Assembly: GCA_018818485.1 (NCBI GenBank)
Contig: JAHIRX010000045.1
Coordinates: forward strand, 1-24,823
Source: Patescibacteria group bacterium
GTDB lineage: Bacteria > Patescibacteriota > WWE3 > UBA101185 > UBA10185
Reading direction: 5' to 3'
Length of the DNA stretch: 24,823 nt
Of the stretch, positions 1 to 18,358 are shown one piece after another. Every line of letters starts with the position of its first letter. The first letter of the stretch is position 1. Position numbers and translations under genes: made by a program. Under the pieces are notes generated by a model. The model did not search any database, had not been told where the DNA came from, and saw nothing but the letters and a program-made list of their open reading frames with translations.

Positions 1-378
1 AACAGTTTGTTCATGAGTAAGACTTGGGATTCTTAAAAACCAACCTGCAAGTACAACAGGTGCTGCAAGATACCCTCCAAAAGATAAGATTACATCAGGT
101 TTTATCTTCATTAGCAGAACTAAAGATTGAAAAACACCATATGGAATCCTTAGAAGTCTTATCAGATTTAAAGTTTTATATAGCTTTCCAGCCTTTAGAT
201 CATAAAAGGGAACACCCAAAGATGTAATTTCTTTGTATTCCAAAGTCTCACTTTTACTTCCCAGAAGAGTGTGTTTATGCCCGAACCAGTGTATACCCAC
301 TTCTGGATCTCTTTGTTTTAGCTCCTCCATCACAGGAAGGGCTGATGTATGATGTCCTCCAGTTATTACTATTTTCAT
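1..378 (-). CDS. murG: MurG glycosyltransferase, N-terminal part (runs off the window start)
   Basis: Not in the ORF track. Translated by hand from the ATG at 378, which overlaps the ftsW stop (ATGA): MKIVITGGHHTSALPV...KAGKL...KPDVILSFGGYLAAPVVLAGWFLRIPSLTHEQTV. It has the TGGH loop, FGGY and HEQ motifs of MurG and follows mraY-ftsW. Confidence 0.9.
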   Translation of the reverse strand, partial: MKIVITGGHHTSALPVMEELKQRDPEVGIHWFGHKHTLLGSKSETLEYKEITSLGVPFYDLKAGKLYKTLNLIRLLRIPYGVFQSLVLLMKIKPDVILSFGGYLAAPVVLAGWFLRIPSLTHEQTV

Positions 379-1505
379 GATTGCTTACTTATGTTAGCTA
401 AAATTCCAAGTCCCATCAAACTAAATACCATTGAAGATCCTCCATATGAGATAAGAGGAATGGGTACTCCAGTAAGTGGAATTATCTTGGTCATTGCAGC
501 TACGTTTATAAAAAATTGAATACCAATCCATGAGGATACTCCTATTCCCAAAAGCTTTCCTAACAAATCAGGAGCATCTCGAGATATTAGAAACCCTAAA
601 TATACAAAATACAAAAAAGCTAAGACTAAAAAAGATGTTCCTATAAATCCAAGTTCTTCTCCGATAATTGCAAATATTGAGTCAGACGCTACCTCGGGAA
701 GATACTGAAATTTTTGTTTTGATTGCCCAAGTCCAACACCTGTGATACCACCAGATCCAAGCGCTACCAGAGCCTGTTTTATATGGTAACTAGAGGTATC
801 TTCATCAGAACCACTTAATAAGGTTATAAGGCGTTGCCGTCTATATGGAGATATAAGTATTACACCCGCTACTAGAAGGGTAACTACTGGAATTAGTATT
901 AAAAGTGGTTTTATTGGAGCCCCAGAAACAAAATATATTATCGTTCCAAGTGCAAATACCATAGCTGCTGTAGACATATTTGGCTGAAGAAGTATTAAAC
1001 CTGATAAAAGTGCAGAGACAATAAAATATACCCAAAATAGTTCCTCTTTCTTTTTTATATTCTTACTAAGTTGAACAGATAGATACAAAATTATGGAAAC
1101 CTTAGCAAGCTCACCTGGTTGAAAACCTAGTACTCCTAAAAAGGGAACCTCCGGAAGAGGGGGTGGGTTTAGATATAACCACCTATTGGCACCATTTATG
1201 CATGGGGCAAAAGCAAAACCATCACTACATGGAAAGAGACCTACTACACCTAGAAATAAAAGAAAAACAATATTTATAATCAGTAGAATATACGCAAACC
1301 CATAAAGTTTGTTGTAATTAAAATTATATAAAAGGAAAAACCCAACAAGTCCAATTATTACCCAACCGAGTTGAAGAGATACAAATTTATATGGATCCCC
1401 ATACAAGTTCTTAGAGGAGATCACTGTAGAATTTGCAATCATTAAAAGACCAAAAACTAAAAATGCAAATATCATGCCTAAAAATACTTTATGTCTTTTA
1501 TCCAT
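375..1505 (-). CDS. ftsW: SEDS family peptidoglycan glycosyltransferase FtsW/RodA
   Basis: Multi-TM protein with motifs GANRW, FQPGELAK, GSGGITGVG, PEVASDSIFAIIGEELG (catalytic Asp kept) and IPLTGVPIPLISYGGSS. Lies between mraY and murG. Confidence 0.93.
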   Translation of the reverse strand: MDKRHKVFLGMIFAFLVFGLLMIANSTVISSKNLYGDPYKFVSLQLGWVIIGLVGFFLLYNFNYNKLYGFAYILLIINIVFLLFLGVVGLFPCSDGFAFAPCINGANRWLYLNPPPLPEVPFLGVLGFQPGELAKVSIILYLSVQLSKNIKKKEELFWVYFIVSALLSGLILLQPNMSTAAMVFALGTIIYFVSGAPIKPLLILIPVVTLLVAGVILISPYRRQRLITLLSGSDEDTSSYHIKQALVALGSGGITGVGLGQSKQKFQYLPEVASDSIFAIIGEELGFIGTSFLVLAFLYFVYLGFLISRDAPDLLGKLLGIGVSSWIGIQFFINVAAMTKIIPLTGVPIPLISYGGSSMVFSLMGLGILANISKQS

Positions 1506-1511
1506 AGGGTT

Positions 1512-2603
1512 TTATAGCAGGGCTACAAACAATCCTGCAAAAGCGAAGAAGATCCCAAAAAGATAAAACCTTAAAGTTATCTTTGTTTCTGGCCAACCTA
1601 ACATTTCAAAATGATGGTGAAGTGGAGCCATCCTAAAAAGTCTTTTTTTAGTCTTTGCATATATTAACTGCTGAAGAGGACTTGAAATACCATCAACTAA
1701 AAACACCGCTCCTATAAATAGAAATGCCACCTCCCTGTGAAGTACAACAGACAATACTGCAAGTATAGCCCCAAGCGCATGGGATCCCACATTTCCCATA
1801 AATATTCTTGCTGGAAAAACATTAAAGTACATAAAAGGTATCAAGGCACCGACGAATGTGGCACAAAAAGATGCTAAAGAGTTAAACTCTAAAACTCTAG
1901 ACAATACCCAAAATGTTATTAAAGAAATAAGAGAAAGTCCTCCCGCTAAACCATCAAGACCATCTGTAAAGGCAACACTATTTAAAATCGTAATAAACAA
2001 AATAAATATAATTATCGGGTATAAAAACCCAACATGAACATCACCAATTAACGGAAACCAGATATAGTCCCAACCAAGTTTAAAATATGCCCAATAAGAC
2101 ACAAATCCAGCAATGATACCCTGAAAAATAAATTTCTGATATGTCTGGATACCACTTGATTCAGAACTACCAACTTTTCGTGAAAACTCTTTAAATGAAT
2201 TAAATATTCTAGAGAAAATACCCGTTCCCTTCGACCTCTTCTTAAAAAGTCCTGCTAGGTGATACTCAAGAAAACCAGGCAAGCCTGACTTCTTGTATAC
2301 CTTTGTGAAATCTTCAAGTATTCCCAAAAAACCAGCTAGAGTTGCAACAAAAAGTGGAAAGAGCGTCTGAGTTCTAGAACGATTGAAAATAAAACTAACT
2401 AAAGCTACTGAAAAAACAAAAACTAAACCTCCCATAGTGGGTGTTCCTTCTTTCCTTCTATGAGTCTTAGGCGAATCTCCTCTTACACTTTCTCCAAGAT
2501 TAAACTTATAAACAAAGTTGATCCAAAAAGGGTACAGAACCAAAGAGATAATAAAACCTAAAAATAAATATATTAAATCTAGCAGTAATCCTACTGTTCC
2601 CAT
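1512..2603 (-). CDS. mraY: MraY phospho-MurNAc-pentapeptide transferase homologue with atypical active-site motifs
   Basis: Motifs KEGTPTMGG, TDGLDGLAGG, FNVFPARIFMGNVGS and FRMAPLHHHFEMLGWPE. The DD motif reads ED and FMGD reads FMGN (see findings). Confidence 0.88.
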   Translation of the reverse strand: MGTVGLLLDLIYLFLGFIISLVLYPFWINFVYKFNLGESVRGDSPKTHRRKEGTPTMGGLVFVFSVALVSFIFNRSRTQTLFPLFVATLAGFLGILEDFTKVYKKSGLPGFLEYHLAGLFKKRSKGTGIFSRIFNSFKEFSRKVGSSESSGIQTYQKFIFQGIIAGFVSYWAYFKLGWDYIWFPLIGDVHVGFLYPIIIFILFITILNSVAFTDGLDGLAGGLSLISLITFWVLSRVLEFNSLASFCATFVGALIPFMYFNVFPARIFMGNVGSHALGAILAVLSVVLHREVAFLFIGAVFLVDGISSPLQQLIYAKTKKRLFRMAPLHHHFEMLGWPETKITLRFYLFGIFFAFAGLFVALL

Positions 2604-3913
2604 ATTTTTGCTCCTAAAGACTTAAGTTTGTCTGAAAAACCAGCCAAGTACTTTTCAATATGTTCCATCCCTATAATCTCACTTTTTCCCTCTGCACACA
2701 AAGCAGCTAAAACAAGCACAGGACCATTTATGAAACTACCAATATTTAGCTTTTCTCCTTTTAATCTTGTGGGTCCCTCGATCTTTACAACACTTTTTGG
2801 TTCACCCTGCACCTCAAAATCATAGGAGTCTTCACTTATTACTGGTATTAAGTCAACTTCTGTGGGTTTAATATTACTAATCTTTGCACCCATTCTGTTT
2901 AGATCAATAACATAACTAAATCTATTGGTATATACGGTGTCATGAACTAAGCTCTCACCACCAGCTTGAGTTAATATAATAGTAGCTAAAGATTGCCAGT
3001 CTGGAACAAAACCAGGAGTAGGGGCAATCTCCACCTGAGCTGGTATCAACTCTTCCTCATGCCTCCATACTTTAAGTTCATTTTCACAAATCTCAAATTT
3101 TGCATCAATCTTATTTAAAAAGTTAACAAATGGAATTAAAGTCTCCTTTTTTATTCCTTTTATCGTTACATTCCCATTTGTCAGTATCGCAGCAGACGCA
3201 AAAATAGCTGCCTCTGTTTTATCTCCTAAAACACTAAATTTAGCGTCTTTAAATATATTTGTGCCAATAACTTGTATCTTTCTCGGTTCAACTCTTTCCA
3301 CGTTTCCTCCCATTTGGTTAACCATTAGTATCAAATCCTCAATCTCTGCTTCCTCAGATGCATTAGCAATAATGGTTTCTCCGTCTAAAAAGAGAGAGCA
3401 AAGTATAGCGTTGTCTGTTCCCATGTGAGTAGATGTTTTAAATACAACTGTTGAAGAGGCCATATTCTCTGCGTTTAAATGATAGTATCTATCGTCTTCT
3501 TTAACTTCTACTCCAAGAGTTTTCCATGTATCTACCAACCTATTTATCGGTCCTGCAACATAAATTTCTGAGTTAAACTTAGGAATAGAGGCCTTTCCAA
3601 ATCTAAAAAGAAGAGGGCCAGAAAGCAGAACCGCTGTTCTTAGTCTTGATCCAAGTTCATACCTAATTTCACTACTTGAAAGTCCTGCCCCATTAAGTAT
3701 TAAGGTGTCTCCTGCCCATTCTGCACTCCCCCCTAAACTTCTAATAATTTCAAGATCATCTTCAATTACTTTGATTCTAGGTACATTTTCCAAAACCACG
3801 TCTTGGTTTGAAAACATAGCAGCGACAATCAGTTTTAAAGATGAGTTTTTTGATCCCGAAACAGTAATATCCCCTGTTAGTGGGGTTGATCCTTCAATAA
3901 AGGTTGATGACAT
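2591..3913 (-). CDS. murA: MurA-like enolpyruvyl transferase-fold protein with a degenerate PEP site
   Basis: Colinear with MurA: GDITVSGSKNS, NVPRI, GPLLFRFG, IIANASEEAEI, APTPGFVPDWQ, VYTNRF, DLNRMGAKI, KLKSLGAKI. Start moved from 3967 to the ATG at 3913, 2 nt after the secG stop, which matches the MurA N-terminus. Confidence 0.8.
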   Translation of the reverse strand: MSSTFIEGSTPLTGDITVSGSKNSSLKLIVAAMFSNQDVVLENVPRIKVIEDDLEIIRSLGGSAEWAGDTLILNGAGLSSSEIRYELGSRLRTAVLLSGPLLFRFGKASIPKFNSEIYVAGPINRLVDTWKTLGVEVKEDDRYYHLNAENMASSTVVFKTSTHMGTDNAILCSLFLDGETIIANASEEAEIEDLILMVNQMGGNVERVEPRKIQVIGTNIFKDAKFSVLGDKTEAAIFASAAILTNGNVTIKGIKKETLIPFVNFLNKIDAKFEICENELKVWRHEEELIPAQVEIAPTPGFVPDWQSLATIILTQAGGESLVHDTVYTNRFSYVIDLNRMGAKISNIKPTEVDLIPVISEDSYDFEVQGEPKSVVKIEGPTRLKGEKLNIGSFINGPVLVLAALCAEGKSEIIGMEHIEKYLAGFSDKLKSLGAKIWEQ

Positions 3914-3915
3914 AA

Positions 3916-4140
3916 TTATGATAAAAGAAGAATAAATATAGAATTGGCTACAAGTAAAACGCCGCAAATAATTGTAAGAATAAATACTATCTTTTCTACA
4001 CCCCTTAATGATCTATATGCTGAAAAGGAACTCTTTAGACCAGAGGTTAAACCCGTGCCTTTTGATTGAATTAAAGTTAGAAGAATCAAAAGAACAGCAA
4101 TAACTATCTGAAATGTTTTAGCTACTGTAAGTAAGTTCAT
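3916..4140 (-). CDS. secG: Preprotein translocase subunit SecG
   Basis: 74 aa with two TM segments and the SecG pattern LIQSKGTGL...RSLRGVEKIVFILT. ATGA overlap with the upstream gene. Confidence 0.8.
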   Translation of the reverse strand: MNLLTVAKTFQIVIAVLLILLTLIQSKGTGLTSGLKSSFSAYRSLRGVEKIVFILTIICGVLLVANSIFILLLS

Positions 4141-4547
4141 CTTTTAGTACAAAGGCTTTCTAAAAATGTATACGTTAAAGAAGTTACCAGAGAAGAAAAT
4201 ACCATAGCCTGAAGACTTGTCAAATCATATGAAGGAAAAGAAAAGCCTAAAATCACAAGGCCAGAAACAGTAGATGAGTGAATACTAAAACCTGGAACAA
4301 AAAGGGTAGACACATAAATTACTATAACAGTCATTGCAAAGGTTAAAAAAACAAAGGGAAGACCCCTTGTTGGTAGAGAAACTATGGAAATTAGTGGTTT
4401 CAAAAAGAAATAAAGTAGGGAAAGTCCTAAAACCAGCAGCACAACCGATTTAAAACTATCAGACCCGTAATCAAAAGCACCAATAACTTGTCTGGATGCC
4501 TCTAGTGCAAGTGCCGTAAAGATAAGTGTCCTGAGAATCTTTTTCAT
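4137..4547 (-). CDS. 4-TM membrane protein, YvlD-like 'phage holin family' (superfamily IV)
   Basis: Hydrophobic, 136 aa, with the family pattern LKPLISIVSLPTRGL...LFVPGFSI. No phage genes nearby. Confidence 0.62.
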   Translation of the reverse strand: MKKILRTLIFTALALEASRQVIGAFDYGSDSFKSVVLLVLGLSLLYFFLKPLISIVSLPTRGLPFVFLTFAMTVIVIYVSTLFVPGFSIHSSTVSGLVILGFSFPSYDLTSLQAMVFSSLVTSLTYTFLESLCTKR

Positions 4548-4553
4548 GGGTTA

Positions 4554-4559
4554 ATTATA
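4554..4559 (-). promoter_or_regulatory. Perfect -10 box TATAAT 6 nt upstream of the ATG at 4547 (candidate leaderless promoter of the holin-secG-mur operon)
   Basis: Minus strand reads TATAAT-taaccc-ATG. The box includes the uvrC stop codon. No SD present. Confidence 0.55.
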
Positions 4560-5895
4560 CCCCAAGAGCCTTCTTTCTTAGAAGATGGTGGTATCTTTGA
4601 GCAAACCTGTGTGCTTCATCTCTAAGTTGTATTAATAGCCTTAAACCTTCGTTATCTTTTGATAGTTTGACTTCTCTGAACACATCCCCATCCTTAAAGA
4701 TAAGTATTTCTTCCTTCTTAGCCAAGCCTACAACTGGGACATAAATATCAAGATCTTTCATAGCCTCAAGTGCGGCGGATACCTGAGGTTTTCCTCCATC
4801 CAGAACCACAAGATCAGAAACTTTCCAACCATCCTTCTTCCTTTTAAATCTTCTATACAAAACCTCATACATCATGGCAAAATCGTCTGGTTTTGATTTG
4901 AACTTAACTTTAAATCTTTTGTATTCCTCTTTATTTATCTTTCCTTCTGTTGCCACAACCATAGAACCAGTAGCCTCTTTTCCTGAAACATTTGAGATAT
5001 CATAGCACTCGATTCTTTGAGGGATGCATCCGACAATAGGCAAGGCCTTTTTTATCTCCACCAAAGCTTTTTTACTCAGGTCTTCTAAAAGATAGGGATT
5101 ATCAATATAACTTTCTGGACTTCTAAAATCTGTTTGAAGATAATAAAAATTTTGAAGAAGATCTCTAAATTTAGCTGCTTTTTCATAATCCTTTTCCTTG
5201 GAAGCTTTCTCCATCTCCTTTTTTACACTATTAATCAATTTTGAAGTACCTCCTGATAAAAGCTTTTTTATTTTATTAATATTATCTTTGTATTCTTTTA
5301 GATTTTCTTCTGAATAACTTACACAGGGAGCTAAACACACATTTATATGACCAAATAAGCATGGGTTTTCTATCTTGTGATAACGTGCAAACTTAGTAGT
5401 AGAACAATCTCTAAACATGAATATTCTTCTGATAACTCTCATAACTTGTTTTACTACACTTCCGTTTGGAAAAGGACCAAAAATTACATCTTTTGGTAAT
5501 AGTTGGGTTTTTCTAGCTGTTGTAACTAGAGAAACACTAACTTTTTTACCATCAAGAATAACTTTTTCATTTCTAATAACGATATAGATATGTGACTTAT
5601 CGTCTTTTAAAACTATATTGTATTTTGGTCTATACCTTTTTATTAATTCTGCTTCTAGAATGAGGGCTTCAAACTCAGATTCTACATCTATATGTTCAAT
5701 GTCGTTAATTTTAGAAACTAATGCAAAAGTTTTAGATGAATCATCTAAACTTAAACTAAAGTATGATCCCACCCGACTTCTAAGGTCTTTAGCTTTACCA
5801 ACATACAAAACTCTCCCGGTTTTATTTTTAAAAATATATACGCCGGGAAGTCTTGGTAAACCTTTAACAATTTCTTTTAAACTTTCCTTTTCCAC
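4555..5895 (-). CDS. uvrC: Excinuclease ABC subunit C, lacking the C-terminal HhH domain
   Basis: GIY-YIG domain (GVYIF...LYVGKAKDLRSRV...LEAELI...PKYN), UVR coiled coil (KDYEKAAKFRD) and RNase H-like domain (ECYDISN, LDGGKPQ, RDEAHRFA). GTG start. Confidence 0.95.
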   Translation of the reverse strand: MEKESLKEIVKGLPRLPGVYIFKNKTGRVLYVGKAKDLRSRVGSYFSLSLDDSSKTFALVSKINDIEHIDVESEFEALILEAELIKRYRPKYNIVLKDDKSHIYIVIRNEKVILDGKKVSVSLVTTARKTQLLPKDVIFGPFPNGSVVKQVMRVIRRIFMFRDCSTTKFARYHKIENPCLFGHINVCLAPCVSYSEENLKEYKDNINKIKKLLSGGTSKLINSVKKEMEKASKEKDYEKAAKFRDLLQNFYYLQTDFRSPESYIDNPYLLEDLSKKALVEIKKALPIVGCIPQRIECYDISNVSGKEATGSMVVATEGKINKEEYKRFKVKFKSKPDDFAMMYEVLYRRFKRKKDGWKVSDLVVLDGGKPQVSAALEAMKDLDIYVPVVGLAKKEEILIFKDGDVFREVKLSKDNEGLRLLIQLRDEAHRFAQRYHHLLRKKALGV

Positions 5896-5901
5896 AAACT
5901 T

Positions 5902-5911
5902 ATTGTAGCAT
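5902..5911. promoter_or_regulatory. Overlapping back-to-back -10 elements for uvrC and the transglutaminase gene
   Basis: Minus: TG-C-TACAAT (TG 5909-5910, box 5902-5907), 6 nt, GTG at 5895. Plus: TAGCAT (5906-5911), 7 nt, ATG at 5919. The intergenic gap is only 23 bp. Confidence 0.55.
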
Positions 5912-5918
5912 TTGAAAC

Positions 5919-7619
5919 ATGAGGAATTTCCTTAGAATATTGTTGTTTAGCCTTCTGCTAATACCCACCAAAGTACTAGCATCTGAAAACAATCAATTTT
6001 CTATAAACTATGATCTAGAATATGATGTTTTAGAATCAGGTGAGACTCAGGTTACACAAAGAACTACCATTACTAATCTAAAAAATGATTACGTACCAAC
6101 AAACTACTCTTTTACAGCCAAGCACATGGCAATTTACGACGTTGAAGCAGTTACAAACGGGGAATCCTCTGAAGCAATTATCGAAACTAGAGAAGATGAA
6201 ACTTTAATCTCTGTAATAATAAATAATTATGCCATAGGAGAGGGAAGACAAAATTATATAAGTTTCACATATAAAACCACAGATATTGCAAAAAAGACTG
6301 GAAAGATTTGGAATATTTATATTCCGCGCATTCAAATTCCAGAAACTACTACTCTTTATAATGTGAAACTTCTGATTCCCGAAGATTTTGGACCAAAAAT
6401 ATACCTATCCCCTACTCCAGTTATTGAAAGAGCTGAAGAAAAAAAGAACGCCTACTATTTAACAAAAGAGACCTTTGTAGAAAACGGGATAACAGCAGCC
6501 TTTGGAGAATATCAATCACTTAATTTTAAACTTAAATATCAGTTAGAAAACACATCCATTCTTCCTCTAATAAGAGAGATCTCCTTGCCCCCCGATATAG
6601 AAGAGGTTCAACAAGTGAACTACCTTCAGATTGAACCTAAACCAAAAAGGTTAAAAACTGATGAGGATGGAAATACCATTGCTTGGTATATATTAGGACC
6701 AAAAAAGAAACTTGAAATAAGTGTTACTGGTATCGCTAAAATATCTGGAAAGCAAATAAACCCAGACTTTGGAAGAGAAACTCAGAGTATTCCTTCAGAT
6801 TTGATTAGAAAATATACTGGCGAAGAAAAATTTTGGCAGGTAAATTCCCCAAATATTCAAAAGGCAGCTTCAGAACTTAAAGATACTAATTTAAATACCA
6901 TTAAAAATGCTCAAAAGGTTTATAACTATGTTATACAAAATCTAACTTATGATTTTAAGGCTTTAGAAGAAGGACCGGTTGAAAGACATGGTGCTGAGGT
7001 TGCTCTTACTCAAAAAGGGCAGTGGACATGTATGGAATTTACTGATCTTTTTGTGACACTAACAAGAGCCATGGGGATACCAGCAAGAGAAGTGAACGGG
7101 TACGCCTTCACAAACAACGAATTAGATAAACCTCTTTCCATTAACCTTCAAGGTGGGGATGTATTGCACTCATGGGCCGAATTTTATGATCCATTTTATG
7201 GCTGGATTCAAGTAGACCCAACTTGGGGATCAACATCTGGAATAGACTACTTCACAAAGCTTGATACAAATCATTTTACATTTGTAATAAAAGGGATTGA
7301 CTCAGAATACCCTTATCCTGCTGGTGCTTATAGATTTTCTGACGATGAAAAACTAGTTGATGTAGAACTTTCACAACAAAACAGTGAGGGAAGTTTCAAA
7401 CCCTCTTTAGAAATAAAGAAAAAGCTAAATTTAAATATAGTTGAATTAATAAAAGGTAACGAGAAATATAAAATAACTAATAATAGTGGGGTGTTTGTAT
7501 ACAACTTAGAAGGAAAAACCTTACCTCCAGGAGCTTCTACTACACTTTATTTATCAAAAAACCTAAGAAATATTGCTTTTGAGGATATCAATCACAATAA
7601 GTATTCTGTAGACCTATAA
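5919..7619 (+). CDS. Secreted transglutaminase-like (Cys-His-Asp) domain protein
   Basis: Signal peptide MRNFLRILLFSLLLIPTKVLA. Core motifs WTCMEFTDLFVTLTRAMGIPAREVNG, LHSWAEFY and WIQVDPTWG. Beta-rich N-terminal region. Confidence 0.85.
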   Translation: MRNFLRILLFSLLLIPTKVLASENNQFSINYDLEYDVLESGETQVTQRTTITNLKNDYVPTNYSFTAKHMAIYDVEAVTNGESSEAIIETREDETLISVIINNYAIGEGRQNYISFTYKTTDIAKKTGKIWNIYIPRIQIPETTTLYNVKLLIPEDFGPKIYLSPTPVIERAEEKKNAYYLTKETFVENGITAAFGEYQSLNFKLKYQLENTSILPLIREISLPPDIEEVQQVNYLQIEPKPKRLKTDEDGNTIAWYILGPKKKLEISVTGIAKISGKQINPDFGRETQSIPSDLIRKYTGEEKFWQVNSPNIQKAASELKDTNLNTIKNAQKVYNYVIQNLTYDFKALEEGPVERHGAEVALTQKGQWTCMEFTDLFVTLTRAMGIPAREVNGYAFTNNELDKPLSINLQGGDVLHSWAEFYDPFYGWIQVDPTWGSTSGIDYFTKLDTNHFTFVIKGIDSEYPYPAGAYRFSDDEKLVDVELSQQNSEGSFKPSLEIKKKLNLNIVELIKGNEKYKITNNSGVFVYNLEGKTLPPGASTTLYLSKNLRNIAFEDINHNKYSVDL

Positions 7620-11916: not shown

Positions 11917-11945
11917 ATTATACTATAAGGTAAATATTAAGTCAA
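11917..11945 (-). promoter_or_regulatory. Near-consensus sigma70 promoter driving the leader and orphan gene
   Basis: TTGACT (11940-11945), 17 bp, TATAAT (11917-11922). The -35 overlaps the PBP stop codon. Confidence 0.7.
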
Positions 11946-14209
11946 TCGTCATCATCTTTACCCCCATCTTCATCTTCCTCTTTTTCAATACACAAAGTCT
12001 CAGGAACAAATGTTCCTTTTATGAAAACTTCAGAAACACCACATTTCTCATCATATTTTACAAAAATATCTCCAAGCTTCTCATAAACTTCATTTGGCTT
12101 TCCATCTAAAACTTCTGTCATTATTTTATTCCATATAGGCGCAGCTCCTGTTAAACCTGATGCGAGGTATCTATTCATAGGAGTACCATCGTTATTTCCA
12201 ACCCAAACACCTACTACATAAGATGGGGTATACCCCAGAGTCCAATTATCCTTTATATTATCTGTGGTTCCTGTTTTTACAGCAACCTTATAACCAGGGA
12301 TCACAAGAGAACTACCAGAACCAAAGGCTGGTGTTCTTGCCACATTATCAGAAAGAATGTGCCATATTAAATAAGAAACCTCACTACTCAAAACCTGACT
12401 ATCTTCTCTTCTATCTTTATATATCTCGTATCCTTTTGAGTCTTTCACGCTTAAGATCGGGGTTGTTTCTTTATATATCCCATTTCTAGATAAAGTCCCG
12501 AACACATTTGTGTGATCCAACAACCTTACCTCCTTACCTCCTAAGGTAACTGATAGACCATAAGAACCATCTATTTTCCAGTTTGAAAGCCCCATTTTAT
12601 GTCCAAGGTCTACAATATTATCTGGACCTACACTACTAGCGACCTTTACAGCCGGAACATTGTAAGAATTAGCTAAGGCTTGGCGCACGGTTACTTTTCC
12701 ATGAAACTTACCATCGTAATTTACTGGAGTATATGGTTTTTGACCTTCTACTTTATAGGTAATTGCAGAATCATCAATTATTGTGGCTGGCGTATAGTTT
12801 CTGCTTAAAGCTAGTGCGTATGTGACAGGTTTTATAGATGATCCAGGTTGCCTATAACCTGTTACCACATCAAAGGCTCCCCAACCCTCTTGAAAATAAT
12901 CAACTGACCCAACATAAGCTAATATTTCTGAGTTTTTTGAATCTAAAACTACCGCGGCTCCATTTGAAAAACCGAGATATGAGTTTTTCCCTACCTCTTC
13001 TTTTACAATCTCTTGAACCTTATCATGAAGTTCTAAATCTAGAGTAGTAGTAATCGTTAAATCTCCTAACTCAACAAATCTCTTACCATATTCTTTCTCA
13101 AGTAACCCTCTAACATAGATTACAAAATGAGGAGCTCTAATAAACTCTACTTGGTCAATAAAATTAAGTTCCATATCAAATGCTTCATCTACTTCCTCTT
13201 TTGAGATATATCTTGTTTCTACCATTCTATCCAGAACATATCTTTGCCTTTCTTTTGCTTTTTCAAGATCAGTAATTGGCGAGTAGCTTGTGGGTGATGA
13301 AGGAAGTCCTGCTAATAAGGTTGATTCTGCAATATTTAATTCCCAGACGTTTTTCCCGAAATATTTTTGTGCTGCTGATTGAATACCCCACGAAGTACCC
13401 CCATAAGGCACGTTGTTTAAATACATTTCTAGGATTTGTGACTTAGAGTATTTAACTTCTACAAGTAGTGCTAAAACTGCTTCTTTTATCTTCCTCGAAA
13501 CAGTTCTCTCAGGAGAAAGGAGTACATTTTTAATTAACTGCTGAGTAATTGTAGATCCCCCTTGTAAATTTCCACCAAAAAAATTGTTCTTTGCTGCCCT
13601 GATAACACTATCTAAACGAATTCCCCAGTGACTATAAAACTTATCATCCTCAACAGCAATCGTAGATTGAATAACATGAAGTGGAACTTCATCCAGACTT
13701 ATGGGATTGTATTTTTTATCTACATATATTTCATATAGTAGCTTTCCATTTCTATCCAATATTCTCGTAGAGCTTTGATTTGCTTTTGTAACAAGTGAGC
13801 CAGGTGTTGGTAGTTCTCTAAACCATCTATAAATTTCAAGAGGGGTGAATATAAAAACTACACTAATAAGTGCTCCTACAAAGTATGGCTTTAAATTTAA
13901 TATCTTAGAAAGTCTCGTCTTAAGATTACCTAGAAACACTTTCCATTTCTTCTTAATAGAAGGAATTATTTTTCTAATGTTTTTAAACCTGTCTACTTTC
14001 TTTCTGGGTACTATTTTAGTCTTTTTTTTGATCTTCTTGGACTTCTTACCCTTAATTTTCTTATTCTTTAGGGCCTTAACTGATGTAGAGATTTCTTTTT
14101 TAACAGCTTTGTAGATTTTTGGAGTGATTACAAGAATCTTCTCAAATGGAAAAATAATAATAAATCCAATATTCTTTATAAGTTTTGATACATTATTAAT
14201 AAAAGGCAT
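11942..14209 (-). CDS. Class A bifunctional penicillin-binding protein (PBP1A family)
   Basis: Glycosyltransferase motifs AVEDDKFYSHWGI, GGSTITQQLIKN, RKIKE and ILEMYLN. Transpeptidase motifs SSIK, SYN and KTGT. One TM helix after a long basic N-terminus. Confidence 0.95.
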   Translation of the reverse strand: MPFINNVSKLIKNIGFIIIFPFEKILVITPKIYKAVKKEISTSVKALKNKKIKGKKSKKIKKKTKIVPRKKVDRFKNIRKIIPSIKKKWKVFLGNLKTRLSKILNLKPYFVGALISVVFIFTPLEIYRWFRELPTPGSLVTKANQSSTRILDRNGKLLYEIYVDKKYNPISLDEVPLHVIQSTIAVEDDKFYSHWGIRLDSVIRAAKNNFFGGNLQGGSTITQQLIKNVLLSPERTVSRKIKEAVLALLVEVKYSKSQILEMYLNNVPYGGTSWGIQSAAQKYFGKNVWELNIAESTLLAGLPSSPTSYSPITDLEKAKERQRYVLDRMVETRYISKEEVDEAFDMELNFIDQVEFIRAPHFVIYVRGLLEKEYGKRFVELGDLTITTTLDLELHDKVQEIVKEEVGKNSYLGFSNGAAVVLDSKNSEILAYVGSVDYFQEGWGAFDVVTGYRQPGSSIKPVTYALALSRNYTPATIIDDSAITYKVEGQKPYTPVNYDGKFHGKVTVRQALANSYNVPAVKVASSVGPDNIVDLGHKMGLSNWKIDGSYGLSVTLGGKEVRLLDHTNVFGTLSRNGIYKETTPILSVKDSKGYEIYKDRREDSQVLSSEVSYLIWHILSDNVARTPAFGSGSSLVIPGYKVAVKTGTTDNIKDNWTLGYTPSYVVGVWVGNNDGTPMNRYLASGLTGAAPIWNKIMTEVLDGKPNEVYEKLGDIFVKYDEKCGVSEVFIKGTFVPETLCIEKEEDEDGGKDDDD

Positions 14210-17014: not shown

Positions 17015-17050
17015 CATACAAAAAATCTTCCTGTAGACTTAGACTTGTCT

Positions 17051-18358
17051 ATGGGAAACCTGATTCTACCGATAATTGAATACCTTGAAAAGCTCTCACT
17101 ACAAGTTCCACTTGAGGTATTTACCGTTGTTGGTACATTTTTAGAAGAGGTAATTGCACCCATTCCGTCCCCTTTTGTATTAACAACTGCAGGTAGTATT
17201 ACTGCAGCTCAAAATAACCCTCTATCATATATTTTCTATATCGCTTTACTTGGTGCTATAAGTAAAACCCTAGGTGGTTGGCTCCTTTATACCGTTTCGG
17301 ACAAGGCAGAAGATTTCTTGTTTTCAAAATTTGGTAAATTCATCGGAGTAACTCAAGGAGAGATAGAAAAGATTGGTAAATACCTAAACGGTGGTTGGAG
17401 AGATAAGGTTGTTTTGTTTGTTCTAAGAGCTCTCCCTGTTGCACCAAGTTCTCCTATCTCAATAACATGTGGTCTTATAAAACTAAACATTAAAACATTC
17501 TTAGTAACTACATTTTTAGGAACCATCATTCGTAACCTTTGTTACCTTTATCTTGGATACACAGGTCTTTCAGCTTCTAAGTCTGTGGTCTCAGGTCTAG
17601 AAACAGGAGAAAGCATTGGTCAGATTGTTGTAATGGTAGGTATTACTGTTCTACTTGCATGGGGATTTACAAAACGCAAGAAAATGTTTGGGGGAGAGGA
17701 AAACACTAAAATAACCGAAGCTAAAGATCTTTTAAAATACAAAAAGGTGGATCCTCTTCCCAAAGAAGAGTCAGAAGAGTTTTCAACTCTATATATCTTT
17801 AGACACGGAGAAACTGAAGATAACGCTCAATTCATTTTTAGTGGTTGGAGAGAGGCAAAACTTACTGAGAACGGTAAAAAACAGGCACTTGTACTTGCGG
17901 GTAAACTTAAAGATAAAAAGATTGATATGTTAATTTCTTCCCCCCAGATAAGAGCGATCGACACTTTAAAAATTGCACTATCAAAAAATAGAGAGGCAAT
18001 AAATCTAGAGGTTAAGATGGACGAAAGAATAAAAGAAAGATCCTATGGGGACTACACAGGAAAAAGTAAATTAGATATCCAACTAGAGGATCCGGAAAAA
18101 CTTAAAAAGATAAGAAGAAGTTGGGATTTTATACCTCCAAATGGTGAAAGTATTGAGATGGTTTACAAAAGAGTTGCTGAATTTTGTGATGAACTAATTC
18201 CTCAAATCAAAGGAAAGAACATCAATGTTGCTATTTCCTGTCATGGAAACTCCATTAGATGTTTTAGAAAATATTTTGAAGGATTAAGTAATGAGCAAAC
18301 TGCAAAAGTTGAAACTCCTCTAGGACAAGATTATGCTGCCTACACTATTAAGGATTAG
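17051..18358 (+). CDS. Fusion of a DedA/VTT membrane domain and a 2,3-BPG-dependent phosphoglycerate mutase (histidine phosphatase) domain
   Basis: N-terminal half: FLEEVIAPIPSPFVLTTAG, LFVLRALP and FLVTTFLG (DedA pattern). C-terminal half: FRHGET, FSGW, ERSYGDYTG, IRRSWDFIPPNGES and CHGNSIR (dPGM pattern). ATG 17051 preferred over TTG 17045. Confidence 0.85.
   Translation: MGNLILPIIEYLEKLSLQVPLEVFTVVGTFLEEVIAPIPSPFVLTTAGSITAAQNNPLSYIFYIALLGAISKTLGGWLLYTVSDKAEDFLFSKFGKFIGVTQGEIEKIGKYLNGGWRDKVVLFVLRALPVAPSSPISITCGLIKLNIKTFLVTTFLGTIIRNLCYLYLGYTGLSASKSVVSGLETGESIGQIVVMVGITVLLAWGFTKRKKMFGGEENTKITEAKDLLKYKKVDPLPKEESEEFSTLYIFRHGETEDNAQFIFSGWREAKLTENGKKQALVLAGKLKDKKIDMLISSPQIRAIDTLKIALSKNREAINLEVKMDERIKERSYGDYTGKSKLDIQLEDPEKLKKIRRSWDFIPPNGESIEMVYKRVAEFCDELIPQIKGKNINVAISCHGNSIRCFRKYFEGLSNEQTAKVETPLGQDYAAYTIKD

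What the first reader, a model, noticed from the sequence alone, without database searches (positions are those of the whole stretch)
2591..3913. MurA-fold protein that has lost the PEP and fosfomycin site: probable pseudoenzyme or new activity
Seen: the active-site loop (about 3535-3590) reads SIPKFNSEIYVAGPINRL instead of SLPGGCxIGxRPVDLH. There is no Cys115 or Asp115, no Gly-Gly, Arg120 becomes Gly and His125 becomes Leu. DLRA (Arg371) reads SFING and HIDRGY (Arg397) reads HIEKYL. Lys22/Asn23 (SGSKNS), Arg91 (LRT), Asp305 (VPD) and Arg331 (TNRF) are kept, and there is a roughly 25-aa acidic insertion (TEVDLIPVISEDSYDFEVQGE). Established, using E. coli numbering: Cys/Asp115, Arg120 and Arg397 are key PEP-site residues. 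Inference: it may still bind a UDP-sugar but not transfer enolpyruvate, for example as a UDP-GlcNAc/MurNAc sensor or scaffold. It would also lack the fosfomycin target Cys.
Basis: partly seen in the sequence, partly recalled or inferred. Interest (0 to 1): 0.7.

Follow-up and report, generated by a model that had tools for sequence, protein, structure and literature searches.

The report
Catalytically dead MurA kept by WWE3
This gene encodes a well-conserved copy of the first cell-wall enzyme, MurA, that has lost its catalytic site, in a tiny groundwater bacterium that seems to lack the rest of the soluble cell-wall pathway but keeps the membrane steps.

Summary
Observation confirmed. Window 2591-3913 (-) encodes a 440-aa MurA-family protein (PF00275) scoring below the MurA equivalog cut-off. 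Cys115 is replaced by Glu116, Arg120 by Gly, Arg371 by Ile and Arg397 by Lys. Lys22, Asn23, Arg91, Asp305 and Arg331 are kept.

This is a clade trait of candidate division WWE3. 114 of the 120 nearest homologues are degenerate. The former catalytic loop is their most variable segment, yet 25 of 35 MurA-wide conserved positions persist, and the losses cluster at the PEP/fosfomycin site.

The gene is orthologous to canonical murA, sharing the secG-murA-mraY-ftsW synteny. It is under purifying selection: 14 synonymous against 3 non-synonymous strain differences.

Among 41 related genomes, none of the 15 with only this form has murB, and 11 of them have no Mur ligase other than MurT. MraY, MurT/GatD and the PBPs persist.

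Best reading: a non-catalytic pseudoenzyme, probably still binding a UDP-sugar and working with the membrane steps. I rate it a new variant of a known kind, of moderate-to-high interest.

The parts
2591..3913 (-). MurA-like gene (P0001, 440 aa, stop included): catalytically degenerate orthologue of murA
   Evidence: ORF and translation. PF00275 E 3.7e-47. TIGR01072 322.9 bits, below the cut-off of 392.7. Best solved relative is C. difficile MurA 6q0a, E 8.5e-54.
3536..3589 (-). Former catalytic loop, residues 109-126 (SIPKFNSEIYVAGPINRL), aligned to E. coli 108-125
   Evidence: Translation and alignments. This is the most variable 9-residue window in the degenerate clade: 2.98 bits against a mean of 1.37.
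3566..3568 (-). Codon of Glu116, in the slot of catalytic Cys115
   Evidence: Coordinates computed from the reading frame checked.
3551..3553 (-). Codon of Gly121, in the slot of Arg120
2729..2737 (-). Ser393-Phe394-Ile395, in the slots of Asp369-Leu370-Arg371
   Evidence: This triplet is shared only with P0002 and P0003; most degenerate relatives keep Asp-Phe-Arg.
2648..2653 (-). Lys421-Tyr422, in the slots of Arg397-Gly398
2789..2860 (-). 24-aa insertion, residues 352-375, conserved in the whole A-type clade including canonical members
   Evidence: Translation. Present in canonical L011, L009 and L022; absent from E. coli and the B-type. Pro350, Asp362 and Tyr364 are invariant in 102 sequences.
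1512..2603 (-). mraY. Its ATG (2603-2601) lies inside the last codons of the MurA-like gene (13-base overlap), with GGAG 8 bases upstream
   Evidence: TIGR00445 223.5 bits, above the cut-off of 192.05. Junction read. The adjacency is conserved in relatives.
375..1505 (-). ftsW/rodA-family (SEDS) gene
   Evidence: TIGR02614 282.1 bits, below the cut-off of 337.5.
1..378 (-). murG, N-terminal part, cut by the contig end. The remainder is on contig C34.
   Evidence: TIGR01133 E 2.1e-14. tblastn places the rest at C34:3-617. Glyco_tran_28_C on L071:3-758.
3916..4140 (-). secG, immediately upstream. Its stop is 2 bases before the MurA-like ATG.
   Evidence: TIGR00810 34.3 bits, above the cut-off of 30.85. 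Junction read. Synteny.
11942..14209 (-). Class A penicillin-binding protein (context: the wall polymerisation machinery is kept)
   Evidence: TIGR02074 512 bits, above the cut-off of 508.75. PF00905 match.

Best explanation
P0001 is the WWE3 orthologue of MurA and has become a non-catalytic pseudoenzyme.

Shown:
- It descends from a canonical murA at the same locus (secG-murA-mraY-ftsW).
- The residues lost are those that hold the PEP/fosfomycin phosphate and perform the chemistry: the Gly-Gly-Cys loop, Arg120 and Arg397, plus Asp369 and Arg371 in this protein.
- The fold-wide conserved positions, and the residues reported to line the UDP-GlcNAc pocket, are kept.
- The gene is under purifying selection.

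Inferred:
- In this lineage the soluble Mur pathway (MurB, MurC-F, Ddl) is gone, so enolpyruvyl transfer is no longer needed.
- The protein survives because of a second, non-enzymatic role exercised together with the retained membrane steps (MraY, MurG, FtsW, MurT/GatD, PBPs).
- The most likely role is binding a UDP-sugar, either UDP-GlcNAc or a UDP-MurNAc-type nucleotide, which natural MurA binds as a feedback ligand. It would then act as a sensor, escort or scaffold for MraY, with which it is translationally coupled.
For: 1. Site loss is specific. 35 positions are conserved in at least 28 of 29 catalytic-looking MurAs (E. coli, 12 canonical A-type, 16 B-type). Of these, 25 are kept at 90% or more in 128 distinct degenerate sequences. 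The 10 not kept are Lys22 (70% Lys, 26% Arg), Gly113, Gly114, Cys115 (0%), Gly118, Arg120 (27%), Ala186, Asp305 (86%), Ala372 and Arg397 (2%).

2. Constraint on the loop is reversed. Entropy is 2.98 bits in the degenerate clade, its most variable window, against 0.35 bits in canonical sisters.

3. The UDP-sugar side is kept: Asn23 98%, Arg91 97%, Ser/Thr162 100%, Asp231 99%, Asp305 86%, Tyr328 94%, Arg331 86%. Roles are as stated in PMC10500568 and PMC11800161 (passages).

4. E. coli MurA tolerates no change at Gly114, Cys115 or Gly118. It tolerates only His at Arg120, Glu at Asp369 and Thr at Gly398, and C115E is severely impaired (PMC9842644, passages). P0001 breaks all six.

5. The closest relative, P0003 (85% identity), has Val for Lys22.

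6. Orthology. Synteny is shared with canonical L009, L011 and L018. P0001 sits in a 34-row all-degenerate clade nested among canonical A-type rows. Canonical sister L011 passes TIGR01072 at 404 bits.

7. Selection. Of 17 listed strain differences inside the gene, 14 are synonymous and 3 non-synonymous. In a sister group of six contigs, dN is 0.054, against 0.042 for mraY and 0.062 for ftsW.

8. Pathway. murB was found in 12 of 23 genomes with a catalytic-looking MurA and in 0 of 18 without one. Mur_ligase_C and MurB_C gave 0 hits in G000, G017 (a single contig), G004 and G011, against 4 and 1 in G007. MraY is strong in 39 of 41 genomes. MurT is present in 29 of 41. MurT and GatD lie side by side in G000.

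9. Precedent. The LpxC-activating role of P. aeruginosa MurA is essential and separable from catalysis, and UDP-MurNAc locks MurA closed (PMC9995270, passages).
Against:
- Lys22, Asp305 and Arg331 are catalytic or PEP-side residues and are retained in P0001. An acidic residue, Glu116, sits in the Cys115 slot, so residual or altered chemistry is not excluded.
- Alignment inside a hypervariable loop is uncertain to within a residue or two.
- G000 is only 84.6% complete, so a second catalytic B-type MurA and Mur genes could lie in the missing part. Nine of 24 family relatives have a B-type copy.
- The A-type gene is missing from some relatives that keep MraY: G010, G021 and G033. MraY has moved away from it in G014, G018 and G024. 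An obligate MraY partnership is therefore not supported.
- dS is saturated, so that ratio is rough.
- One search listed only the best-supported differences: 22 more across the 6 kb were not shown.
- The RNA-library contigs of run X6 do not prove transcription.
- The related genomes are kin, so the counts are not independent.
Confidence: 0.7

Rival explanations
1. It is still an enolpyruvyl (carboxyvinyl) transferase with a rewired site. Glu116 would act as the general acid, and other basic residues (Lys112, Arg125) would replace Arg120 and Arg397. The substrate could be UDP-GlcNAc or a different acceptor.
For: - Lys22, Asp305 and Arg331 are kept, and Glu aligns with Cys/Asp115.
- Lys112 and Arg125 (motifs IPK and PxNR) are conserved in the clade.
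- A PEP synthase gene lies in the window at 19582-21861.
- The Cys-to-Asp change is a natural active variant in other bacteria (PMC4062475, passages).
Against: - Only 12 of 128 degenerate relatives have Glu at that slot. The loop is the most variable part of the protein, which does not fit a catalytic element.
- IPK and PxNR are also present in canonical sisters, so they are not compensations.
- P0003 lacks Lys22.
- C115E is severely impaired in E. coli (PMC9842644).
- Only five clade-specific newly conserved residues were found, and none is a Cys, Asp, Glu or His.
- No MurB was found to use the product.
Confidence: 0.12
2. It is a decaying relic: a gene that lost its purpose when the pathway was lost, and is drifting towards a pseudogene without any function.
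For: - Some relatives show further decay. The gene is split in G003 (L024).
- Rows L030, L031 and L026 are very long branches, 1.9 to 3.4 changes per column.
- The gene is absent from G001, G023 and G033.
Against: - The reading frame is intact in all 128 distinct degenerate sequences examined.
- 25 of 35 family-wide conserved positions are kept.
- Strain differences within the gene are 14 synonymous to 3 non-synonymous.
- dN equals that of mraY and ftsW in a sister group.
- The end branch of the window's row is short, at 0.096.
Confidence: 0.05
3. Assembly gap. The organism has a complete Mur pathway with a second, catalytic (B-type) MurA in the unassembled 15% of the genome. P0001 would then be a regulatory paralogue working beside an active enzyme.
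For: - G000 is 84.6% complete, in 86 contigs.
- B-type MurA coexists with a degenerate A-type in G003, G006, G009, G015, G016, G018 and G034.
Against: - 14 other genomes with only the degenerate form, most 89-99% complete and one a single contig (G017), also lack murB. 10 of the 14 have no Mur ligase other than MurT.
- In the window the dcw genes run murA*-mraY-ftsW-murG with no mur ligase gene between them. In G007 the ligases follow directly.
- A 2013 paper states that a WWE3 genome lacks a complete identifiable peptidoglycan pathway (PMC3812714, passage).
- Even if this rival were true, P0001 itself would still be catalytically degenerate.
Confidence: 0.13

Closest known systems
Canonical MurA (UDP-N-acetylglucosamine 1-carboxyvinyltransferase; E. 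coli K-12 b3189; C. difficile 6q0a)
   Same: - Same family and length class: PF00275, full-length alignment, 25.6% identity to E. coli MurA.
- Lys22, Asn23, Arg91, Asp231, Asp305 and Arg331 are kept.
- Orthologous locus beside mraY, shared with canonical WWE3 sisters.
   Different: - Lacks the Gly-Gly-Cys loop, Arg120, Asp369, Arg371, Arg397 and Gly398.
- Scores below the TIGR01072 cut-off.
- Has a 24-aa insertion, which its canonical WWE3 sisters share.
- No MurB was found in the genome.
Natural Cys115-to-Asp MurA (Mycobacterium tuberculosis, Chlamydia), fosfomycin-insensitive but active
   Same: The fosfomycin-target Cys is replaced by an acidic residue (PMC4062475, passages).
   Different: By recall (not checked in a call here), those enzymes keep the rest of the loop and Arg120 and Arg397. 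P0001 has Glu rather than Asp, in a loop with no Gly-Gly, and has lost both arginines.
P. aeruginosa MurA as a non-catalytic activator of LpxC
   Same: It shows that the MurA fold can carry an essential protein-protein regulatory function separable from catalysis, and that UDP-MurNAc binds MurA (PMC9995270, passages).
   Different: That MurA is also an active enzyme, and its partner LpxC belongs to LPS synthesis. By recall, CPR bacteria lack LPS synthesis (not searched here). The partner of P0001 is unknown.
Tannerella forsythia, which lacks MurA/MurB and scavenges MurNAc
   Same: An organism-level precedent for living with neighbours' wall material after losing the first committed steps (PMC7670621, abstract seen in the listing).
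   Different: By recall, T. forsythia keeps the Mur ligases and rebuilds UDP-MurNAc by salvage. Here the ligases were not found either, and a dead MurA is retained instead of being deleted.
B-type MurA paralogue of the same class (for example G015:C4, G029:C1)
   Same: Same family, with NF006873 scores of 310-323 bits. It co-occurs with the degenerate A-type in seven genomes.
   Different: It forms a separate clade. It keeps Pro-Gly-Gly-Cys, Arg120 and Arg397 but has Gly for Arg331 and Gln for Arg371, lacks the insertion, and often lies next to murB.
AroA (EPSP synthase) and NikO
   Same: Same superfamily fold family, PF00275.
   Different: The matches are weak: TIGR01356 73.4 bits against a cut-off of 287, and NikO 4fqd at E 1.1e-9. 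No shikimate-pathway context was examined.

Membership tests
MurA, EC 2.5.1.7 (TIGR01072 equivalog) | Enolpyruvyl-transferase family domain over the full length (PF00275) | tested here: met
   PF00275 E 3.7e-47 over residues 7-347. The full-length match to TIGR01072 covers 1-438.
MurA, EC 2.5.1.7 (TIGR01072 equivalog) | Score at or above the curated equivalog cut-off | tested here: not met
   322.9 bits against a cut-off of 392.7. Canonical sister L011 scores 404.0. The looser subfamily model NF006873 is passed: 320.5 against 297.
MurA, EC 2.5.1.7 (TIGR01072 equivalog) | Catalytic Cys (or Asp) 115 in a Pro-Gly-Gly-Cys loop | tested here: not met
   The aligned residues are Phe-Asn-Ser-Glu. Cys occurs at this slot in 0 of 128 degenerate relatives.
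MurA, EC 2.5.1.7 (TIGR01072 equivalog) | Arg120 and Arg397, which with Lys22 hold the phosphate/phosphonate (PMC4790336, passage) | tested here: not met
   Gly121 and Lys421 occupy these slots. Lys22 is present.
MurA, EC 2.5.1.7 (TIGR01072 equivalog) | Asp305 (general base) and the UDP-GlcNAc pocket residues Asn23, Arg91 and Ser162 | tested here: met
   Asp305, Asn23, Arg92 and Thr162 are present.
MurA, EC 2.5.1.7 (TIGR01072 equivalog) | Pathway context: MurB present to reduce the product | tested here: not met
   No hit to TIGR00179 or PF02873 in G000, which is 84.6% complete. The same holds in 14 of 14 other genomes that have only the degenerate form.
MurA, EC 2.5.1.7 (TIGR01072 equivalog) | Enolpyruvyl transfer from PEP to UDP-GlcNAc | not testable with these tools
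   Needs an enzyme assay.
Pseudoenzyme (dead homologue kept by selection) | Loss of residues required for catalysis in the active relatives | tested here: met
   Six positions that E. coli MurA cannot change, or can change only conservatively, are changed: Gly114, Cys115, Gly118, Arg120, Asp369 and Gly398 (PMC9842644; alignment).
Pseudoenzyme (dead homologue kept by selection) | Purifying selection on the rest of the protein | tested here: met
   14 synonymous against 3 non-synonymous strain differences. dN is 0.054, similar to the neighbouring genes. 25 of 35 family-wide positions are kept.
Pseudoenzyme (dead homologue kept by selection) | Demonstrated absence of activity and a demonstrated other role | not testable with these tools
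   Needs biochemistry and genetics.
AroA / EPSP synthase (TIGR01356) | Score above the equivalog cut-off | tested here: not met
   73.4 bits against a cut-off of 287.25.

The most novel reading that the evidence does not exclude
A large WWE3 lineage has discarded every soluble step of peptidoglycan precursor synthesis: an active MurA, MurB, MurC-F and Ddl. It keeps MraY, MurG, FtsW, MurT/GatD and the PBPs. It therefore builds its wall from a late precursor taken from its host, either Park's nucleotide (UDP-MurNAc-pentapeptide) or a lipid-linked form.

The dead MurA would have been exapted as the cytoplasmic receptor or escort for that nucleotide. The UDP-sugar pocket and the carboxylate-side residues (Lys22, Arg331, and Arg/Lys371 in most members) are kept. 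The phosphate-binding arginines and the lid loop, which would clash with a peptide stem, are free to vary. The protein would hand the ligand to MraY, with which it is translationally coupled.
Probability: 0.15. Interest if true: 0.85.

Novelty: new variant of a known kind. Interest (0 to 1): 0.62.

Why it matters
MurA is among the most invariant bacterial enzymes and is the target of fosfomycin. Of the 150 best 50%-identity cluster representatives, 117 keep Cys/Asp115, Arg120 and Arg397.

A whole clade keeps the protein under selection after erasing its catalytic site. That would be a natural demonstration that the MurA fold has a second, non-enzymatic job, as was shown experimentally for P. 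aeruginosa MurA and LpxC.

These proteins are named 'UDP-N-acetylglucosamine 1-carboxyvinyltransferase' in public records. Automated metabolic reconstructions of WWE3 and other CPR genomes would therefore credit them with a step they probably cannot perform.

The pathway pattern, with soluble steps missing and membrane steps kept, gives a concrete and testable hypothesis for what these ultra-small episymbionts take from their hosts.

Tried and rejected
No model, superposition on MurA or pocket analysis could be made, and fold search was therefore not used. Residue roles come from alignment to E. coli MurA and from passages in papers.

I could not fetch the genes of P0002 (97% identity) or P0003 (85%) for an unsaturated dN/dS.
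- The metagenome scan returned 17 loci at 53-62% identity, all too far from P0001.
- dN/dS was therefore computed on a sister group, where dS is saturated.
- For P0001 itself I used the strain differences listed by read laying.

Single origin of the degenerate state.
- Parsimony gives 4 changes on the 73-row quick tree.
- The group was named after seeing the tree and long branches are involved. I treat repeated loss as likely but not established.

MraY as a fellow pseudoenzyme. The window's MraY has Glu-Asp for Asp115-Asp116 and Asn for Asp267. The same is true in G007, which keeps the full pathway. I rejected this as evidence of a dead MraY.

The insertion as part of the new function. Rejected, because canonical sisters also carry it.

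Expression. An RNA-library run (X6) has contigs over 26 of 30 bins of window 1-6000, including 3060-3962. The tool warns that DNA can be present in such libraries, and contigs show presence only. This is no more than a weak hint.

GlmU. No match above the cut-off in any of five genomes, including G007. Uninformative.

Ddl. Strong only in G007. There are weak ATP-grasp hits in G017 and G004 whose identity I did not resolve.

Salvage enzymes AmgK, MurU and MurQ were not searched.

Earlier notes of this scan: one look-up returned nothing.

Literature. These searches found no description of a catalytically dead MurA or of this WWE3 feature:
- 'WWE3 + peptidoglycan + MurA'
- 'MurA + pseudoenzyme' (15 of the 86 hits were listed, and none of those titles or abstracts concerns a dead MurA)
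- 'Candidate Phyla Radiation + peptidoglycan biosynthesis + MurB + absent' (0 papers)
- 'Katanobacteria + peptidoglycan'
- 'Patescibacteria/MurA/MurB/MraY/lack'

Kantor et al. 2013 (PMC3812714, passages) says in one sentence that the WWE3 genome lacks a complete identifiable peptidoglycan pathway. 'MurA' does not occur in its main text. They may hold gene-level detail that bears on novelty.

Rows dropped.
- The conservation counts exclude six very divergent rows (L021, L026, L027, L028, L030, L031).
- They also exclude two C-terminally truncated canonical rows (L018, L025), which my rule had wrongly placed among the degenerate.
- The tree used 73 rows: 43 of the 48 ORFs plus the window's own protein, 27 of the 120 database homologues chosen by hand to span the list, and E. 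coli MurA and AroA. The five ORFs not carried over were the window's own ORF row L003 (replaced by P0001) and L041, L047, L042_+605 and L043_+82, left out as too divergent. The two L024 fragments, never, were also left out.

Full report
**What is there**

The minus-strand ORF at 2591-3913 encodes P0001, 440 aa. It sits in a tightly packed operon: secG (3916-4140), the MurA-like gene, mraY (1512-2603), ftsW (375-1505) and murG (1-378, cut by the contig end).
- The secG stop is 2 bases before the MurA-like ATG.
- The mraY ATG lies 13 bases inside the end of the MurA-like gene, behind a GGAG.

Family matches:
- PF00275, E 3.7e-47.
- TIGR01072 (murA equivalog) 322.9 bits, below its cut-off of 392.7. 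The looser NF006873 is passed: 320.5 against 297.
- The best solved relatives are MurA enzymes: C. difficile 6q0a at E 8.5e-54, and E. coli 1uae at 9.8e-42.
- Identity to E. coli K-12 MurA is 25.6%.

The evidence is the HMMER alignment to 6q0a and three MAFFT alignments that include E. coli MurA.
- Changed: Gly113-Gly114-Cys115 to Asn-Ser-Glu116, Gly118 to Val, Arg120 to Gly121, His125 to Leu126, Asp369-Leu370-Arg371 to Ser-Phe-Ile395, and Arg397-Gly398 to Lys421-Tyr422.
- Kept: Lys22, Asn23, Arg91 (Arg92 here), Asp231, Asp305 and Arg331.

The one refinement is that the Cys/Asp115 slot holds Glu.

A deep mutational scan of E. coli MurA (PMC9842644, passages) found the following:
- Gly114, Cys115 and Gly118 tolerate no substitution.
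- Arg120 tolerates only His, Asp369 only Glu and Gly398 only Thr.
- It recalls that C115E severely affects activity.

P0001 breaks all six. Lys22, Arg120 and Arg397 hold the phosphonate of fosfomycin (PMC4790336, passage).

**A clade trait, aimed at one site**

The homologues are named candidate division WWE3 or Patescibacteria where a name is given, and are annotated as MurA. Of the 120 nearest (P0002-P0121), 6 have the canonical Pro-Gly-Gly-Cys, Arg120, Asp-Leu-Arg and Arg-Gly-Tyr motifs. The other 114 do not.

I defined 35 positions conserved in at least 28 of 29 catalytic-looking MurAs: E. coli, 12 canonical A-type and 16 B-type.
- In 128 distinct degenerate sequences, 25 of the 35 stay at 90% or more.
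- The 10 that do not are Lys22 (70% Lys, 26% Arg), Gly113, Gly114, Cys115 (0%), Gly118, Arg120 (27%), Ala186 (Ser), Asp305 (86%), Ala372 and Arg397 (2%).

The 9-residue window 113-121 is the most variable of the whole protein in the degenerate clade, at 2.98 bits against a mean of 1.37. In nine canonical sisters of the same family it is far more conserved than average, at 0.35 against 0.84.

Residues reported to line the UDP-GlcNAc pocket are kept:
- Arg91 and position 163 are in the diphosphate pocket, Asp305 in the glucosamine pocket, and Phe328 contacts the uridine part (PMC10500568, passage). PMC11800161 gives a list of site residues.
- In the degenerate clade: Asn23 98%, Arg91 97%, Ser/Thr162 100%, Asp231 99%, Tyr328 94%, Arg331 86% plus 9% Lys.

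Erosion goes on within the clade. Most members keep Asp369 and Arg or Lys at 371. P0001, P0002 and P0003 have Ser-Phe-Ile there, and P0003 (85% identical) has Val for Lys22.

Only five positions are newly conserved in the degenerate clade: Ser186, Lys232, Phe265, Ala310 and Lys383. None suggests a new catalytic group.

Among the 150 best representatives of 50%-identity clusters from 1.84 billion proteins:
- 117 keep Cys/Asp115, Arg120 and Arg397.
- 20 are degenerate by my rule; two of these keep Cys and lack only Arg397.
- 13 are truncated or have the loop deleted.
- All but those two Cys-keeping rows of the degenerate and loop-deleted ones are among the higher-scoring hits, that is, the nearer relatives.

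**Origin**

The order orf136-secG-MurA-like-mraY-ftsW is shared by degenerate and canonical members (L009, L011, L018) of the family and order.

A 73-row tree rooted on E. coli AroA (quick IQ-TREE, SH-aLRT only) shows the following:
- A separate B-type clade.
- E. coli MurA grouped with the A-type (support 89).
- Canonical A-type rows at the base.
- The window inside a 34-row clade (support 92) made only of degenerate forms.

Parsimony needs 4 state changes. A single origin is marginally rejected (p-AU 0.044, post hoc).

The canonical sister L011 passes TIGR01072 at 404 bits.

The 24-aa insertion (residues 352-375) is present in canonical L011, L009 and L022, so it predates the loss. It is strongly conserved: Pro350, Asp362 and Tyr364 are invariant in 102 sequences.

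**Selection and expression**

Four public runs were laid on window 1-6000. They list 17 differences inside the gene, of which 14 are synonymous and 3 are not (S2P, T10I, E288D). A further 22 differences over the 6 kb were not shown by the tool.

In a sister group of six metagenome contigs (86-93% protein identity), the MurA-like gene has median dN 0.054. The neighbours compare as follows: mraY 0.042, ftsW 0.062, the 375-aa ORF downstream of ftsW (murG by position, not checked by a family search) 0.076, and the 490-aa ORF upstream, in uvrC's position, 0.117. dS is saturated at about 2, so the ratio of about 0.03 is rough.

The strain is held by groundwater metagenomes from several studies. Contigs of one metatranscriptome library (X6) cover parts of the gene. 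This is only a weak hint of transcription.

**Pathway context**

G000 is 564,558 bases in 86 contigs and 84.6% complete. It has a single PF00275 gene.

Across G000 and 40 relatives:
- murB (TIGR00179) was found in 12 of 41 genomes.
- All 12 have a catalytic-looking MurA (canonical A-type or B-type), so murB is present in 12 of 23 such genomes.
- It was found in 0 of 15 genomes with only the degenerate form: G000, G002, G004, G005, G011, G013, G014, G017, G019, G020, G024, G025, G026, G027 and G035.
- It was found in 0 of 3 genomes with no PF00275 gene.
- These genomes are kin, so the counts are not independent.

Mur ligases:
- Mur_ligase_M hits in the degenerate-only genomes are the MurT gene alone in 8 of the 15 and none at all in 3 (G026, G027, G035); three genomes have one further ligase and G024 has two.
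- Full sets occur in G007, G028, G029, G030, G039 and G040.
- Mur_ligase_C and MurB_C gave no hit in G000, G017 (a single contig of about 0.9 Mb), G004 and G011. They gave 4 hits and 1 hit in G007.
- A strong Ddl was found only in G007.
- tblastn of E. coli dcw proteins on G000 found FtsI-like, MraY, FtsW, MurG, FtsA and FtsZ. It found no MurC, MurD, MurE, MurF or DdlB.

What is kept:
- A strong MraY match in 39 of 41 genomes.
- MurT_C in 29 of 41.
- In G000, MurT (MurT_C 9.8e-29) next to a GatD-type amidotransferase (GATase_3 1.6e-32).
- A class A PBP in the window (TIGR02074 512 bits) and a class B PBP fragment at its end.

Kantor et al. 2013 state that, of four candidate-phylum genomes, only the WWE3 genome lacks a complete identifiable peptidoglycan pathway (PMC3812714, passage).

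**How it most likely works**

Shown: the gene is an orthologue of murA that lost the PEP/phosphate site and the catalytic loop. It keeps the fold and the UDP-sugar side, and it is under purifying selection.

Inferred:
- Catalysis became useless once the soluble pathway was lost.
- The protein persists for a non-enzymatic role with the lipid-linked steps.
- I commit to a UDP-sugar-binding sensor, escort or scaffold acting near MraY. I put about 0.7 on 'non-catalytic but functional' and about 0.35-0.4 on the specific UDP-sugar/MraY version.

The precedent is P. aeruginosa MurA. Its LpxC-activating function is essential and separable from catalysis, and UDP-MurNAc locks MurA closed (PMC9995270, passages).

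One pattern fits a ligand that has a carboxylate but no phosphate, such as UDP-MurNAc:
- The phosphate-binding arginines are gone: Arg397 2%, Arg120 27%.
- Lys22, Arg331 and Arg/Lys371 are mostly kept in the clade.
P0001 itself lacks Arg371.

**Against the MraY-partner version**

The A-type gene is missing from G010, G021 and G033, which keep MraY. MraY lies elsewhere in G014, G018 and G024.

**Limits**
- No biochemistry.
- G000 is incomplete.
- Loop alignment is uncertain by a residue or two.
- The relatives are not independent samples.
- Supplements of the cited papers were not seen.

**Verdict**

I found no published account of a dead MurA in five searches. I rate it a new variant of a known kind, with interest 0.62.

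Noticed in passing
L035 (G015:C4), L032 (G029:C1), L034, L036-L040, L042-L046, L048, L049: There is a second MurA-type clade (B-type) in the same class. It keeps Pro-Gly-Gly-Cys, Arg120 and Arg397 but has Gly for Arg331 and Gln for Arg371. It lies next to murB in G009, G028, G029, G034, G039 and G040. It occurs without detectable murB in G003, G008, G010, G015, G016, G018, G021 and G038.
   Followed up: partly
L042 around 605-1920 (G028) and L043 around 82-1340 (G039): A very degenerate MurA-like ORF lies directly upstream of the B-type MurA gene, in tandem.
   Followed up: no
L024 (G003:C6:34404-35656): The A-type gene of G003 is split into two ORFs of 180 and 266 aa, so it is a broken copy. 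G003 also has a B-type gene.
   Followed up: no
window 1512-2603 (mraY) and relatives: MraY of this family has Glu-Asp in place of E. coli Asp115-Asp116, and mostly Asn in place of Asp267 (MGNVGS). G007, which keeps the full Mur pathway, has the same, so this does not track the MurA degeneration. That these three Asp are catalytic is my recollection.
   Followed up: partly
G024:C14:314853-318717: A Mur ligase, MraY and a second Mur ligase sit together, away from the MurA-like/ftsW locus. In G024 the MurA-like gene is followed directly by ftsW.
   Followed up: no
G028:C20:7810-10746 and G039:C25:27798-30779: One open frame of about 1340 aa carries three Mur_ligase_M matches, so these are apparently fused Mur ligases.
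   Followed up: no
window 17045-18358 (+): A fusion of a VTT/DedA-type membrane domain with a histidine-phosphatase domain. The membrane domain has weak matches to the undecaprenyl-phosphate transporter UptA, and the phosphatase domain is of the phosphoglycerate-mutase family.
   Followed up: no
window 4137-4547 (-): A 136-aa membrane protein of the PF04020 family (4-TMS holin superfamily IV). It is conserved immediately upstream of secG in the same synteny block across the family.
   Followed up: no
window 5919-7619 (+) and 19582-21861 (-): A 566-aa transglutaminase-core protein with no NCBIfam match, and a PEP synthase (981.5 bits on NF005057).
   Followed up: no
G000:C46:1377-3301 (L070): MurT and a GatD-type amidotransferase lie side by side, next to a Wzy_C (O-antigen ligase family) membrane protein and dnaA.
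   Followed up: partly
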